Part shown: positions 16,312 to 64,000 of the stretch, in pieces
How the letters are laid out: every line of letters begins with the position of its first letter
Position numbering within the stretch: the first letter of the stretch is position 1
Source: Eledone cirrhosa
Taxonomy: Eukaryota
Direction: 5' to 3'
Assembly (NCBI GenBank): GCA_964016885.1
Contig: OZ024757.1
Coordinates: 25,606,001 to 25,670,000, forward strand
Length of the DNA stretch: 64,000 nt
Made by a program: the position numbers and the translations under genes
Notes under the pieces: generated by a model
The model's database searches: none
Seen by the model: only the letters and a program-made list of their open reading frames with translations
What the model was told of the DNA's origin: nothing

Positions 16312-19300
16312 ATGTGTGTGTGTGTAGTAGAGTAATTCGTGGTAGAGGGATGGTCAGTAGGAATGTGTCTGTACGTGTGTGGGGGATATTTTAACATGTT
16401 AAAATATATTTTTCAGCTCTTGTCTTATACGGAGAAGTGTATGTGTGTGTGTGTATGTCTCTTTGTATGTTAATGTACGCGTGTGTATGTGTGTGTGTAT
16501 ATATGTGTGTGTGTGTGTATATGTGTGTGTGTGGGGGGGGGACCAGTATTTTTGTGATACTGTTAAAAATGGTGTACATTATTCGATATTTTCAGTAAAA
16601 ACGATTCTCTCAATAGAACATCAAAAACTTTAATAATAAAAGGTGTGAAATGATATATAGTATTGGCATAATACCAAGGTGTGTGTGAGTGTCCAGATTG
16701 TACGTACTGCAAGGGGAATCCATTAGGCCTTGCCGTATTGGAATACTTGTGTACAAATATGTATGTGCCCATCAGTGTGCAATGCATATGTGCGTATATG
16801 TATGTGTGTGTGTCGGCACGTTTATATCTATAGACATCAAAAGGTATGCAAATTTGTGTATATTTGTGTTACACCATAGGACATGTGGGTTTACGTATGT
16901 CATTGTGTTTATATGTGGATAGAGATGTATGCTGATGTAGGTATGTATGTTGACGTGTGTATGATGTGGGTTCGTCTTAGGGAGAAGTGTTTAGACGGGG
17001 TCCGTATTTGTTAATAAAGTGAGATTCCTTGCTGATGCGCTGGGTGTGGGTGGCATTATCTTTAAATTTGTAGAGGGGAAAGATTCTGAAGTTGGGATGA
17101 TTTTGGGCGGCACAGGTATCAATGTGTTCACTCAATGGTATTTTCCTGTATTCCCGTATTTTAATTTGGGATCTATGGACAGTCATGCGTTGGCGGAGGC
17201 TGTTTTTGGTCTGGCCTATATATTGTTCTCGACAACCTGAGCAAGTTAATACATATATTAGATTTTCTGATGCGCATGTGAAATTGTGTTTTACTATAAA
17301 AGTTTGTCCTTCTTTGAAATAGAATTCCGAACCCTCTATTAGGTTGATGCATATGACACAGTTGGGTCTATCGCACTTTTTTTACTGTGGGTTTCGTTGT
17401 TGTGGTTGGCAGTACTTTGGCATGTGTTAGGATGTTTTTCATTGACTTAGATTGTCTTTTGCTCTTTATGATATCGTGTGTTCGTAGGATTTGGTTCATT
17501 CTATGGTCCTTTTTCAACACAGGGATGTTCTGGAGGATGGTGTCAAAGGCCTCATTGTTGAGGGGCTTGTGTGTGGAGATGTATGAAAGAGCTTTTAGTT
17601 TCGGTTGATTTACTTTAGGGTGTCTAAGGTCCTGGGTACTGAGTTTTAGGGCACGTTGGATTCCATTGTCAATTAGTGATGCAGGGTAGTCCCTGCCTAT
17701 GAGTGTGTCCTTTAGTTCTTGTAGCCGTAAGTAGCAGGTGTTTTTATTGGAGACTATAGTACAGATACTCTTGGCTAAGTTGTAGGAATATTAATTTTAA
17801 CGTGTCTAGAGTGGCAAGAGTTGAAAGGAAGATATTGCTTGGTGTCTGTGGGCTTGTAGTATATGTCTGTTTCTATTTTTTTTGTTATGGATCTTAATGA
17901 GGATGTCGAGGAAGGGGAGTTGTTGATGGCTGTATTCCATTGTGAAGTTAATATTCGTGTTGAGCCCATTTATAAGGGTGTGAAATTCTTTAAGTTTCTC
18001 GATGTTTTCGTGCCAAAGGATGAAGCAGTCATCTAGATATCGCTTCCAGTTCCTTTCTATGTGTAAGTGGAAAGTGTTTCCAAATTTGTTTAGTACTTTA
18101 GTGTAGAGGGTGATTTCCAGGTATCCCATGACTAGGTTGGCATAAGTGGGAACTGTTTTCGTTCCCATAGCGGTCCCAGAATTCTGCCTGTAGAGTTTGT
18201 TATTGAAAACGAAGTAATTGTTCTCCAAGATAAATTTGAGTCCCTCTATCACGAATTCTTTTTTGATGCGTTGTGGGAGTTCATTGTGGTAATTATTCAG
18301 CCAGAATTGGATAGCTTCTATTCCTAGGTTGTGGGGGATGTTGGAGTATAGGTTGACTACATCGAACGTCACTAGTAAGGTTTGTTCAGAAAGAGGCATA
18401 TTAGGGAGGTGATTGAGCATATCTAGGTCGTCCCTTATATAGCTTTTGATGTGTTTGAGAAAAGGCTTGAGAAGGGTATCAATGAAGTTGCTAAGGCGGT
18501 GGGTTTCGCAAGCGGGGCCTGCTATTATAGGTCTTAATTTGAGATCATTGGGTGAGGGGACATTGATGACTATGTCTGTGGCTTCCTTGCATGCCTTACT
18601 TATTAATTCGCTTTTATGTACTTTAAGGATACCGTAGAAAAGGCTGGATTTACTTGTGAAGTCTGTGATGAAGCTGAATTCCTTGTTAGTGAGTCCTTCT
18701 TTGTATTGGTTGATCAGAGTTTTTAGGTTTCTTATAATTTTCTGTTGATTGTAGTGTTCAGCCTTTTCGTAGTATGTTTCGTTTTCCAAAGTGGAGAGCG
18801 CTAAGTTGATATAGAATTCTGTCTCCATTAGGACTACTGTACTCCCTTTATCAGCCTCTTTAATTGTAATGGTTCTGTCGGTTTTTAAATTATTTAATTC
18901 TTCCCATTCTTTTTTGTTGAGGTTTGGCTTGTGTTTTTGTCTGTGCAAGTATTGGTAAGGGAAGTTTGGGATGTGTTCACAGAATTCGTCCAGGATTTTA
19001 TTTCTACCTTTTGATGGGGTGTAATTGCTTCTATTTCTGGCTAATGATTCATCCTCATTGTACTGGTCGAATAGTTCTTCACTGAGTCGTAACTTTCTAC
19101 AGAAGTCTGTGATGTCTTCCTTCATTTCATAGTAGTTAGGACGTAGTGGAGTCGGTGTGAATTTAAGACCTTTGGAGAGTAAGTTGATAAGGTTGGGTGT
19201 TGGTTCTGGACTAGTAAGATTGATAATTTTTATTACTCTCGGTTTCTCCTCCCTGTCTTGTGTTATTTTGTTTGCCTGTATCTGTGTGCTGTATCTAAAA

Positions 19301-19835
19301 AATGGTTGGGGTAGAGGGGTTGTCTGCTGATGTTAAGTGGTCTCCTGTGTTTGTTATATTCCTTGTTGTTGTAAAATGTGGTTCGGGTTCGTGGTTGTAG
19401 ATTGAATGGGGTGTTCCTATATTGCGAGTATGGATGTGTGTTTCTATGTGCCATGTTGGATTGTGGTATTATAGGTGGCCTACGTTGTTGGTTGTATCGT
19501 GTGGTGTGGCTTTGTTGTGTATTGTGGAAGCGAGAGTTGAGAAAATGGAAATTACCTTGCTGTCTCCTTGAAGCGAGGAAGTTGTTACATCTATCATGGT
19601 GGTGGTATCTTTTCCCTATGTTTGACGATGAGGCATCCGCGTAGTAGTTGAGTGATTTGGTATGGTGTCTCCTTGAAGGGGGAAAGTTGTAATTATTTTT
19701 GAAAAGCATAAGAAATGCGCAACCGGTAAAACTTAAAACCAAAACTGAATACTAACCAATACTATTTTTACTTATTCCTAATTAAACTATTTTTCACTGG
19801 GAACAATTTGTCAGCATTTTCTTTTCCTTTTACCA
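15755..19835 (-). mobile_element. Penelope-like retroelement (Neptune-like) with inverted terminal repeat
   Basis: RT and GIY-YIG coding region on the minus strand. 15755-15906 is inverted relative to 19690-19835. Both outer ends lie at or near TA-rich tracts. Confidence 0.92.
16977..19260 (-). pseudogene. PLE reverse transcriptase + GIY-YIG endonuclease ORF (frameshifted)
   Basis: Motifs in order: LSKGLKFTPTP, KEADKGSTVVL, LRPII, TFDVVNLYSNIP, QNSGTAMG, RYLDDCF, LPFLDI. After a frameshift at the A-run near 17880: TDIYYKPTD...SCH, then CDRPNCVIC...C...LIYVLTCSGC...YIGQT...RQRM..H. Confidence 0.93.
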
Positions 19836-34796: not shown

Positions 34797-34990
34797 ATAC
34801 TTGGGGAGGGTCATATTGTTATAATATTGCCAGAAATAATAACAGAACACACTCACAGAAGCGAAAACCAACCCAAACCAAACAGTGAGTGTCTTCTGTT
34901 ATTATTTCTGGCAATATTATAACAATATGACCCTCCCCAAGTATAACAATATTTGTTTCGACACACGATTTCTTATCAAAAACCTTGCAA

Positions 34991-34996
<6 letters not shown>
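34791..34996. mobile_element. Family C foldback (arms 34791-34856 / 34885-34950, plus tail)
   Basis: ttgttatacttggggagggtcatattg.../...caatatgaccctccccaagtataacaa. Related pieces are at 5617-5655, 47905-48020 and 62370-62445. Confidence 0.85.
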
Positions 34997-35027
<31 letters not shown>

Positions 35028-45865: not shown

Positions 45866-46178
45866 TAAAATAAAGTTAAATAAAAGTCAAATGATTAAAA
45901 TTTAGCTTCGTTTATTACTGCTATATATATTTCAGTGACAGCCATCTTTGGCTGTGACCTCTTCAGGCAGTTTGAATTAGTATGGTATAGACAAGTACAT
46001 ATGTTGTTTAGGTGTATAATATTGTCAATACTCTGATATGCCCAGTTCCTTGTTGGGTTGTTATTTCATACTAATTCAAACTGCCTGAAGAGGTCACAGC
46101 CAAAGATGGCTGTCACTGAAATATATATAGCAGTAATAAACGAAGCTAAATTTTAATCATTTGACTTTTATTTAACTT

Positions 46179-47848: not shown

Positions 47849-48029
47849 GCACACACACACACACGTACACATACATATATATATATATATACATACACAC
47901 CGATGAATCTGATTTGCAAGGTTTTTGATTTAAAATCGTGTGTTGAAACAAATATTGTTATATATTTATATTTTTCTGGCAATATTATAACAATATGACC
48001 CTCCCCAAATATAACAATATATATATATA

Positions 48030-60640: not shown

Positions 60641-61878
60641 TAAGAGGGTTGACTGAAAAGTTCATAGGCTGACCAAGATACTCTCATGAAATGACCAAAA
60701 TGAGGTTTATTTTTCAACATAGTCCCTGGAAAGAAACAATGTAGTCATTAATAAGAAGTGTTTAAATTAATGCATGTAAGATTTCACAGCTCTAGCATCA
60801 CTCCTTCGTAGGCTGACCAAGATTCTCTCATGGAATGACCAAATGAGGTTTATTTTTCAACTATAAGGAAGATTTGAAATTAATGCATGTAAGCTTTCAC
60901 TTTCACAGCTCAAGCATCAATCCTTCGTAGGCTGAGCTAGATACTCTCATGGAATGACCAAATGAGGTTTATTTTTCAACTATAAGGAAGATTTGAAATT
61001 AATGCATGTAAGCTTTCACTTTCACAGCTCAAGCATCAATCCTTCGTAGGCTGAGCTAGATACTCTCATGGAATGACCAAATGAGGTTTATTTTTCAACT
61101 ATAAGGAAGATTTGAAATTAATGCATGTAAGCTTTCACTTTCACAGCTCAAGCATCAATCCTTCGTAGGCTGAGCTAGATACTCTCATGGAATGACCAAA
61201 TGAGGTTTATTTTTCAACTATAAGGAAGATTTGAAATTAATGCATGTAAGCTTTCACTTTCACAGCTCAAGCATCAATCCTTCGTAGGCTGAGCTAGATA
61301 CTCTCATGGAATGACCAAATGAGGTTTATTTTTCAACTATAAGGAAGATTTGAAATTAATGCATGTAAGCTTTCACTTTCACAGCTCAAGCATCAATCCT
61401 TCGTAGGCTGAGCTAGATACTCTCATGGAATGACCAAATGAGGTTTATTTTTCAACTATAAGGAAGATTTGAAATTAATGCATGTAAGCTTTCACTTTCA
61501 CAGCTCAAGCATCAATCCTTCGTAGGCTGAGCTAGATACTCTCATGGAATGACCAAATGAGGTTTATTTTTCAACTATAAGGAAGATTTGAAATTAATGC
61601 ATGTAAGCTTTCACTTTCACAGCTCAAGCATCAATCCTTCGTAGGCTGAGCTAGATACTCTCATGGAATGGCCAAATGAGGTTTATTTTTTCAACACAGT
61701 CCCTGGAAAGAAACTATTCAGTTATTGATAAAAAGAGTTGACACCATGCATGCAATATTTCACAACTCTAGCATCACTCCTTCATAGGCTGACCAAGATA
61801 TTTTGAATGACCAAAGGAGGTTTATTTTTCAATATAGTCTCTGGAATGAAACAATTCAGTTATTAATAAGAAGAGTTG

Positions 61879-62014: not shown

Positions 62015-62358
<344 letters not shown>

Positions 62359-62575
62359 TTCGTTTCTGAATTTGTTTAGCAAGATTCTTTATCTGAAATC
62401 GTGTGTTGAAACCGATATTGTTATACTTTGGGAGGGTCATGTTGCCAATAAGAAACACACGCACCAGTTGCTTTCACTTCAATTTAATTTAATATATATT
62501 TATAAATTTACAAATTTATAAATTTCTGGTTGGTTGGTTGGTTCCACAACCAGATAGTTGTTTATATATATATAT

Positions 62576-62620
62576 AGTCATAGTTCTTTCGTCACACACT
62601 CTGTGACCTCTTCAGTGACT
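62576..62620 (-). ncRNA. Type I hammerhead at the 3' terminus of the PLE fragment
   Basis: Minus strand reads agtca-CTGAAGA-ggtcacagagtgtgtgac-GAAAG-aa-CTA-tgact, running directly into (TA)n. Confidence 0.85.
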
Positions 62621-62917
62621 GGGGATTTCTTTCTTCGTTTCTGTGCCTTTCCTTTCTTCTATCCTACGCCATTTTGTTTGTGTGTGGGTTGCGTGCTCAG
62701 TTTGCGCATGCGCCACATCCGGGTGTCTGTGTGTGTTTGTGTTCATTTTTCTATTTTTCTATTTATATTTGTTTGTTTATTTATTTATTTATTGTTGGTT
62801 GGTTGTTTGTTCTATGTGTGTGTGTGTTTTCATTTTGTCTTGTGTGTGTTTTCATTTTGTGTGTGTTTTCAATTGTAAGTTGTTTGTTCTATGTGTGTGT
62901 GTGTTTTCATTTTGTCC

Positions 62918-63437
62918 TTAATTGTAAGTTGTGATGTTGCTGTTCCACTCATATTTTCTATTTAATTTTGGTTTTAATTCTTTTATGCTTACTGCCTCTG
63001 TAATTTGCCTAAACATTGCGTCTTTCTTGTGTGTGGATTCTATTTTTATTTCTATGCTCTCTAATTTACCCCTGTGTTCTATCTTAGCATGTTGGTAGAG
63101 CACAGATGATTCTTTACTATCTTGGAGGTCTCGCCAGTGTTCATTTATTCGTTCCCCTATACTACGAGCTGTCTCACCTATGTACACTATATTTTTGTTT
63201 CTACATTGTCCTTCAGTACATCTTATGCTATATACTACATTTCTAGTTTTACAGTTAATATGGGGGCTTATTTTACAGGTTATACATTTCTTATCTATAC
63301 ATGAGGGTCTTTGGAACGGGTATGTCTTGCTAATAAGTGTTTTTACGGAGGTACCAGGTCTTTCTACTATCTTAATATTGAGATTATGTTTCTTTAGGGC
63401 CCTTCTAAATTTGTAGGCTAGTTCGCCTCTAGGGGTT
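62918..63437 (-). pseudogene. PLE C-terminal Cys-rich linker + GIY-YIG endonuclease (left arm)
   Basis: Mirror image of 63444-63963. Confidence 0.88.
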
Positions 63438-63443
63438 GTATTG

Positions 63444-63963
63444 AACCCCTAGAGGCGAACTAGCCTACAAATTTAGAAGGGCCCTAAAGAAACATAATCT
63501 CAATATTAAGATAGTAGAAAGACCTGGTACCTCCGTAAAAACACTTATTAGCAAGACATACCCGTTCCAAAGACCCTCATGTATAGATAAGAAATGTATA
63601 ACCTGTAAAATAAGCCCCCATATTAACTGTAAAACTAGAAATGTAGTATATAGCATAAGATGTACTGAAGGACAATGTAGAAACAAAAATATAGTGTACA
63701 TAGGTGAGACAGCTCGTAGTATAGGGGAACGAATAAATGAACACTGGCGAGACCTCCAAGATAGTAAAGAATCATCTGTGCTCTACCAACATGCTAAGAT
63801 AGAACACAGGGGTAAATTAGAGAGCATAGAAATAAAAATAGAATCCACACACAAGAAAGACGCAATGTTTAGGCAAATTACAGAGGCAGTAAGCATAAAA
63901 GAATTAAAACCAAAATTAAATAGAAAATATGAGTGGAACAGCAACATCACAACTTACAATTAA
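63444..63963 (+). pseudogene. PLE C-terminal Cys-rich linker + GIY-YIG endonuclease (right arm, 5'-truncated)
   Basis: Open frame TPRGELA...IKIVERPG...PF...CIDKKCITC...CKTRNVVYSIRC...C...VYIGETARSIGERINEH...RQITEAV..KELKPKLNRKYEW. Confidence 0.9.
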
Positions 63964-64000
63964 GGACAAAATGAAAACACACACACACATAGAACAAACA

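What the first reader, a model, noticed from the sequence alone, without database searches (positions are those of the whole stretch)
62576..64000. Very young foldback PLE fragment links GIY-YIG coding sequence, terminal HHR and (TA)n target
Seen: arms of at least 557 bp (62881-63437 / 63444-64000) with a 6-nt loop and no mismatch noticed. The frame is open, and the left arm ends in an HHR abutting (TA)n. This ties the short HHR foldbacks to PLE machinery. The linker (TPxGELA...IVERPG...PF..CxxxxCxxC) differs from the 17-kb element and may be Naiad-like (tentative).
Basis: partly seen in the sequence, partly recalled or inferred. Interest (0 to 1): 0.7.

Follow-up and report, generated by a model that had tools for sequence, protein, structure and literature searches.

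The report
Two-ended Penelope insertion, unusual reverse transcriptase
This mirror-image DNA is a shortened copy of a young, abundant Penelope-like jumping gene, likely made when both ends of a cut chromosome copied one RNA from two fixed start points, and its intact relatives encode a reverse transcriptase with an extra telomerase-sized segment that may mark an undescribed lineage.

Summary
The palindrome is as described and longer: a 2.1-kb head-to-head pair of 5'-truncated copies of a young Penelope-like element (PLE), window 62359 to 463 bases past the window end, with one indel in about 1,020 bp. The hammerhead is not terminal and the (TA)6 beside it belongs to the element; the target (TA)n lies about 220 bp further out. 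It is not a Naiad: intact 1,266-1,318-aa copies have RT, a Nematis-type zinc linker, then GIY-YIG. The layout is published. Two extras: (1) 54 of 57 joined pairs have one tailed and one short end, arms share variants, and either arm can be the longer, which favours priming from both target ends on one RNA over the published self-priming idea. The scan noted this rule before in other families of this genome. (2) The family and at least 178 relatives carry about 65 extra residues between RT motifs 3 and 4, where telomerase has its IFD; I found no C-terminal-endonuclease PLE with a conserved insertion of this size in print. This locus's own junction was not tested with reads, and no tree with named references was built.

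The parts
62230..62358 (.). (TA)n target repeat flanking the left end
   Evidence: sequence; 73 of 83 element ends-23 loci abut TA-rich DNA
62359..62416 (-). 58-nt 'tail', present on the left arm only; it encodes about residues 9-27 of the ORF; outer (long) start site
   Evidence: the right arm lacks it
62417..62917 (-). Left pseudo-LTR / 3' non-coding region, ending at the inner (short) start site 62417; contains the ORF start codon at 62440
62564..62576 (-). Internal (TA)6-7 run, part of the element (possibly TATA-like; untested), not the target
   Evidence: recurs in the copies listed
62576..62620 (-). Minimal type I hammerhead-like motif (stem I 5 bp, stem II 6 bp, 1-bp helix III); predicted cut after 62581, 163 nt from the short end
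   Evidence: exact 34-mer occurs 5,205 times in the genome; cleavage untested
62667..62676 (-). CAAAATGGCG, resembling a YY1 site (recalled consensus), where 24 of 162 arms stop; candidate RNA 5' end
   Evidence: inference
62918..63443 (-). Left arm coding part: zinc linker (CX4CXXC-X7-C) and GIY-YIG endonuclease, last 175 codons of the ORF
63438..63443 (.). 6-nt centre; belongs to the left arm, which is 7 nt longer; 1 nt of microhomology at the joint
63444..64000 (+). Right arm; coding to 63963; continues beyond the window through a second hammerhead to the short site at window-equivalent 64463, then (TA)n
   Evidence: L031 3444-4463

Best explanation
This is one 5'-truncated, head-to-head insertion of a young endonuclease-bearing Penelope-like retrotransposon, likely made when the endonuclease cut both strands of a (TA)n repeat and each free end primed reverse transcription on the same RNA, one at a fixed inner site and one 58 nt further out. 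Both start sites end in AATAT, which could pair with the TA primer (inferred). The two cDNAs would then stop, here within 7 nt of each other, be joined at their 3' ends through microhomology or small templated inserts, and serve as each other's second-strand template (inferred). Short hammerhead fold-backs of this family would arise the same way from the first pair of sites in a transcript that starts about 270 nt upstream (inferred). The copy in the window has no RT and cannot move by its own proteins. Intact relatives encode an RT with a conserved ~65-residue insertion in the fingers and a Nematis-type linker (shown in sequence); the insertion's role is unknown, most likely holding RNA or primer.
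For: Shown: intact ORFs of 1,266-1,318 aa in 4 fetched loci; the left arm is 99.9% identical to one. Ends: 10,819 tail-type and 12,330 short-type exact matches, 424 read-through. Pairing: 54 of 57 joined head-to-head pairs in 93 loci are tail+short, 3 tail+tail, 0 short+short (P about 1e-13 against independent choice); 38 of 44 from coordinates alone (overlapping sample). Either arm can be longer: tailed arm by >30 nt in 20, short-end arm in 21, within 30 nt in 13 of 54; a short tailed arm cannot be a copy of a tail-less arm. One template: the partner arm is the strictly closest of 53 arms in 20 of 27 pairs, tied in 3; median 1 against 7 differences in 400 nt. Joints: 16 of 32 have inserted bases, 5 of the other 16 have 3 nt or more of overlap against 4.4% by chance. 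In vitro, an anole PLE cuts and extends both strands and starts at two sites that delimit the tail (PMC11167929). Raw reads of two other samples show 11 listed opposite-strand joints, 7 at identical places in both.
Against: No biochemistry. Symmetric pairs are in excess (11 of 32 within 30 nt against 2.3 expected; 3 of 23 against 0.8 among long arms) and many centres read like 1-2-nt snap-backs, so this locus, being symmetric, could itself be a snap-back product. Among symmetric pairs the tailed arm is the longer in 16, the other in 7, tied in 6 (P 0.09). In 4 of 27 pairs another arm was closer than the partner, and conversion between arms could also make them alike. Three tail+tail pairs break the rule. 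About half of all ends are not in a pair (48% paired), and some pairs have an internal inverted piece instead of a second end. The anole PLE was reported to start without homology to the cut DNA, unlike the AATAT pairing proposed here.
Confidence: 0.68

Rival explanations
1. Self-priming (snap-back): one cDNA stops, folds back on itself and is copied, giving a hairpin that the endonuclease later trims at the short site and joins to the target.
For: Published reading of PLE palindromes (PMC3846280) and of the tail as an endonuclease resolution product (PMC8557442). Excess of symmetric arms; repeated identical 2-nt snap-back-like centres, 5 of 18 at one control site; shared variants between arms.
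Against: A copy cannot be longer at the centre than its template, nor carry a tail its template lacks; both cases are common (21 of 54 with the short-end arm longer by >30 nt, 17 by >100 nt). Some partner arms are only a fragment of the tail (L074, L087, L110).
Confidence: 0.2
2. Two separate RNAs or two successive insertions give the two arms.
For: Arm lengths are independent in most pairs (41 of 54 differ by >30 nt); 4 of 27 pairs have a closer arm elsewhere.
Against: In 7 of 7 clearly asymmetric pairs the partner was the closest or tied; successive insertions would not give the tail+short rule or the head-to-head bias (44 head-to-head against 4 tail-to-tail neighbours within 9 kb).
Confidence: 0.08
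3. Assembly artefact from a fold-back chimeric read.
For: Near-perfect palindrome; the junction of this locus was not checked against reads.
Against: The mirror stops exactly at the element's ends, the two ends differ by the 58-nt tail as in other copies, flanks differ and there is one indel between arms; ten other loci have centres within a few bases but with other junction sequences; inverted joints occur in raw reads of other samples.
Confidence: 0.03

Closest known systems
Canonical endonuclease-bearing PLE insertions with an inverted 5'-truncated copy and one-sided tail (Craig et al. 2021, PMC8557442 Fig. 2 legend and passages; Arkhipova et al. 2013, PMC3846280 parts 1-4 of 5)
   Same: Head-to-head inverted layout, partial tandems, pseudo-LTR holding the first codons and a hammerhead, tail on one end, (TA)n preference, asparagine-rich ORF insert as in Adineta.
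   Different: Tail is 58 nt rather than 30-40; tail+short pairing counted here as a near-strict rule; the Asn-rich stretch (42% Asn over 120 aa) lies before the RT.
Nematis clade (three elements seen in supplementary Figs S1, S2, S7 of PMC8557442)
   Same: C-terminal GIY-YIG with CCHH; CX4-5CXXC followed after 7 residues by the next Cys; similar helix and IVE(K/R)PG stretch before it.
   Different: The Nematis RTs shown have no insertion between motifs 3 and 4 (about 63 residues against 120-169 here); DKS, GLRKDHK and RPVCGA motifs differ; no tree with Nematis sequences was built.
Naiad and Chlamys (N-terminal endonuclease PLEs with IFD)
   Same: Insertion between RT motifs 3 and 4; CX2-5CXXC linker; (TA)n targeting; high copy number.
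   Different: Endonuclease is C-terminal, canonical-order hammerhead present, DKS not DKA, insertion about 65 aa rather than 20-40 and unlike theirs in sequence by eye.
Neptune clade
   Same: RT, Cys-rich linker, C-terminal GIY-YIG; microsatellite targeting.
   Different: Linker spacing 7 against 23-30; 22% mean identity to 41 Neptune-type RT cores against 41% within the family; separate clade.
Anolis PAc Poseidon element (Frangieh et al. 2024, PMC11167929, parts 1-2 of 4 read)
   Same: Two RT start sites inside the ORF start delimiting the tail; AT-rich targets.
   Different: PAc lacks the zinc linker; the parts read do not link the two sites to the two ends of inverted insertions.
Telomerase RT with its IFD
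   Same: Best structural matches of the model (Tribolium TERT Z 11.1, rmsd 3.9, 352 aligned); insertion at the same place and of similar length (human about 118 residues between motifs by my count from Fig. S1).
   Different: The insertion is mostly helix and loop and did not superpose on TERT IFDs at low rmsd; probably an independent gain.

Membership tests
Penelope-like element, EN+ | Single ORF with telomerase-like RT and GIY-YIG endonuclease | tested here: met
   Intact ORFs; Pfam RVT_1 E 3e-4 and GIY-YIG E 2e-4, both under the curated cut-offs for the 787-aa piece; fold hits TERT and I-TevI
Penelope-like element, EN+ | Pseudo-LTRs, tandem or inverted insertions, one-sided tail | tested here: met
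Penelope-like element, EN+ | Minimal type I hammerhead motif in the pseudo-LTR | tested here: met
   Core, stem I, long stem II with extra 5' base as in PMC4209133 (passages); the 4-nt helix III insert GAAC is not palindromic
Penelope-like element, EN+ | Ribozyme cleavage and retrotransposition activity | not testable with these tools
   Only indirect: 40 of 40 scored copies 100% identical over 520 bp
Naiad | GIY-YIG N-terminal to RT | tested here: not met
   DKSG at 567, YVDD at 891, YIG at 1179
Naiad | DKA motif and no canonical hammerhead | tested here: not met
   DKS; canonical-order hammerhead present
Nematis | C-terminal endonuclease with CCHH and CX2-5CXXC linker, short spacing | tested here: met
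   Spacing 7 in 42 of 54 parsed relatives; 7 in the three published Nematis rows
Nematis | RT without insertion between motifs 3 and 4 | tested here: not met
   120-139 residues in 118 of 121 proteins; about 63 in the two Nematis rows of Fig. S1
Nematis | Falls within the Nematis clade in an RT tree | not tested
   No named reference sequences were available to the tree tools
Neptune | Long spacer (about 20-30 aa) after the CXXC linker and RT grouping | tested here: not met
   Spacing 7 against 23-30; separate clade from 41 unnamed Neptune-type relatives of the 17-kb element, support 0.95
Penelope/Poseidon | No Cys-rich linker between RT and endonuclease | tested here: not met
   CX2-5CXXC in 50 of 53 relatives with a parsed C-terminal YIG
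Hydra | CxCX5C linker, no CCHH, DKT, no IFD | tested here: not met
   only the KDHK stretch resembles Hydra
Telomerase IFD/TRAP | Same fold as the TERT insertion | tested here: inconclusive
   Low-rmsd alignments cover 116-119 of 201 residues for TERTs with or without TRAP and for LINE-1 alike; longer ones have rmsd 5-14 A; best Z 6.8

The most novel reading that the evidence does not exclude
The fragment belongs to an undescribed, widespread and recently active PLE lineage that joins a Nematis-type C-terminal endonuclease to an RT with a telomerase-sized fingers insertion, and its intact copies insert by a two-headed mechanism in which two RT sites start 58 nt apart on one RNA from the two ends of a double-strand cut, which explains PLE inverted repeats, the one-sided tail and the short hammerhead fold-backs together.
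Probability: 0.35. Interest if true: 0.75.

Novelty: new variant of a known kind. Interest (0 to 1): 0.5.

Why it matters
How PLEs make their tandem and inverted insertions is named as an open question in PMC8557442. This family offers intact ORFs, two base-exact start sites, a simple target and thousands of copies, so the two-ended priming model can be tested directly. PLEs are the sister group of telomerase; a C-terminal-endonuclease lineage with a conserved insertion at the IFD position bears on whether that insertion is ancestral or gained repeatedly. The locus itself is an ordinary dead fragment.

Tried and rejected
Hot spot at this centre: 11 loci share it, but two control positions gave 2 and 18, so it is not special. 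Simple snap-back as the general mechanism: my first reading (60%), dropped. Structured RNA at the tail: no better than shuffles (z -0.15). Rfam: no hit. Pfam on the full 1,278-aa frame: no family at E 0.1. PDB sequence searches: only weak hits. Homodimer prediction for residues 25-245: no answer, score 0.00, alignment not used, fold uncertain; not evidence either way. TERT IFD fold match: not found, which does not show that the folds differ. Read test of this locus's junction: not obtained. Searches mixed reference coordinates and double-counted loci; their arm-length counts were replaced. One search used only the 27 pairs with both arms of 400 nt or more, selected and unselected together. One search dropped 12 of 88 proteins whose RT core was not parsed. 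Family motifs LRKDHK, RPVCGA and GGAIG occur 0 times in the PMC8557442 supplement, but long sequence runs there are cut and alignments are gapped. The YY1 likeness is recalled; one search shows only that L1 carries a YY1 site. Literature searches found no paper on two-ended priming of PLEs or on this RT type; Repbase, Dfam, Arkhipova 2006, figures and bioRxiv supplements were not seen.

Full report
Observation. The inverted repeat is as reported and both arms encode the last 172-175 residues of a GIY-YIG protein. The window lies on contig C18 of a 3.0-Gb genome. The next stretch shows the palindrome running 949 bp without mismatch, with one 1-nt indel in about 1,020 bp; the right arm ends at window-equivalent 64463 and the left at 62359. 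The hammerhead-like motif is internal: the (TA)6 after it and about 150 nt more recur in the copies listed. The left end carries 58 extra bases (the tail); both ends abut long (TA)n.

The family. The 520-bp coding piece gave 979 candidates, of which 40 were scored, all 100% identical. The hammerhead 34-mer occurs 5,205 times; tail-type ends 10,819, short ends 12,330, read-through into the ORF 424. Ages are mixed: 15 of 60 endonuclease-bearing arms in 95 loci are at least 98% identical to this one and 34 under 95%. Four fetched loci hold complete ORFs of 1,266-1,318 aa in 4.3-4.4-kb units. The order is N-terminal region, Asn-rich stretch, RT, CX4CXXC linker, GIY-YIG. The nearest named protein is a 70%-identical Octopus vulgaris prediction.

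Artefact check. The mirror ends at the element's boundaries, with different ends and flanks. Ten other loci have centres at nearly the same place with other junction sequences. Raw RAD reads from two other samples, laid on a non-palindromic part of an intact copy, show 11 listed opposite-strand joints, 7 at the same coordinates in both; 31 further joints were not shown and most rest on one read start. The junction of this locus was not tested with reads.

Insertion rule. I fetched 60 regions covering the first 78 of the 100 listed hammerhead matches' neighbourhood on C1 (all 18 inverted pairs, one tandem, 40 single matches) and 35 regions around head-to-head end pairs not already held. In 93 of these loci, 57 joined head-to-head pairs were found: 54 tail+short, 3 tail+tail, none short+short. 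Coordinates alone give 38 of 44 (overlapping sample). The tailed arm is longer by over 30 nt in 20 pairs, the short-end arm in 21, and 13 are nearly equal. The partner arm is the closest sequence in 20 of 27 pairs, tied in 3, beaten in 4. Half of 32 unselected joints have inserted bases and the rest are enriched for microhomology. Both start sites end in AATAT. 24 of 162 arms stop 250-274 nt from the short end, against 2 and 1 in the neighbouring bins; the first sample was chosen by the hammerhead match, which favours arms of 200 nt or more.

Mechanism. One-sided tails and inverted truncated copies are published (PMC8557442, passages), and the palindromes were read as self-priming (PMC3846280). 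Self-priming predicts that one arm type is always the template and never the shorter; the data show both directions equally. An anole PLE cuts and extends both strands and starts at two sites flanking the tail in vitro (PMC11167929). The simplest joint reading is two cDNAs, one per target end, one per start site, on one RNA, joined at their 3' ends. Symmetric pairs such as this one are in excess and could reflect both enzymes stopping at one RNA end, or true snap-back in a subset. I took up this reading after seeing earlier scan notes on other families of this genome (more) and then tested it on this family.

Classification. Not Naiad (domain order, DKS, hammerhead). The linker matches the three Nematis rows in the published alignments in spacing and in the IVE(K/R)PG stretch; 42 of 54 parsed relatives have spacing 7, while relatives of the window's 17-kb element have 23-30. 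The RT has 120-139 residues between motifs 3 and 4 in 118 of 121 proteins and 120-169 in all 61 parsed among the further profile hits, against 57-62 in 26 parsed controls and, by my count from Fig. S1, about 63 in Poseidon, 84 in a Naiad and 118 in human TERT. The insertion has conserved residues. 35 family RT cores form one clade against 41 Neptune-type controls, support 0.95; no named references were in the tree. The paper states that canonical C-terminal-endonuclease PLEs lack the IFD and that IFD-like regions occur sporadically in Coprina; two Adineta families have a short Cys-rich insert there. The model is confident (pLDDT 93), its best matches are telomerases and I-TevI, and the insertion does not superpose on TERT IFDs. 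The Atlas neighbours of the closest homologue are PLE-type clusters.

Papers seen. PMC8557442: passages, sections 3 and 12, supplement parts 1, 54, 57, 58 and two searches; no figures. PMC11167929: parts 1-2 of 4. PMC3846280: parts 1-4 of 5. PMC4209133, PMC3681739, PMC12873604: passages. 10.64898/2026.07.22.740005: part 1 of 5 and passages (it lists eight PLE clades); its supplements were not seen. Repbase, Dfam and Arkhipova 2006 were not available and may already hold this family.

Verdict. A real, ordinary product of a known class of element, misread at its end and in its clade. Its value lies in the family: intact recent copies, a sharp two-end rule already noted by this scan in other families, and an RT variant that I could not find described. 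New variant of a known kind; interest 0.5.

Noticed in passing
window 62015-62229: A separate small fold-back of another family sharing the same (TA)n: 65-nt arms starting inside a hammerhead-like stem, a short end on the left and a tail of about 80 nt on the right.
   Followed up: partly
L031 6206-6550 (about 2.2 kb past the window end): An older copy (89% identical) of the same family: tail plus about 270 nt, then an 8-9-nt remnant of a short second end before (TA)n.
   Followed up: partly
window 45930-46130: Short fold-back with a hammerhead-like motif on each arm, a different family.
   Followed up: no
window 17806-19332 (-): 508-aa PLE RT frame whose relatives have Neptune-type linkers and no fingers insertion; used as control.
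   Followed up: partly
window 575, 1117, 6069, 25091, 34620 (-): Further minimal hammerhead-like motifs with an 8-10-bp AT-rich stem I, apparently another family.
   Followed up: no
window 34933-34997 and 47900-47962: Short diverged matches to the tail and first codons of this family.
   Followed up: no
window 60663-61795: Tandem array of a 119-bp unit, about 8 copies.
   Followed up: no
G000 C1:132947037-132947576: A 46-bp tandem repeat of 12 matches containing the end of the tail and the next ORF bases.
   Followed up: no
L041 5083-5901 (-): 273-aa frame with a CxCX5C linker and GIY-YIG, Hydra-type by motif.
   Followed up: no
L078, L102, L103: Insertions whose inverted second piece comes from inside the element rather than from an end, resembling LINE-1 twin-priming inversions.
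   Followed up: no
L072 about 650-695; L043 about 7400; L044 about 5330: Joints with short templated repeats of neighbouring sequence, as expected from end-joining repair.
   Followed up: no
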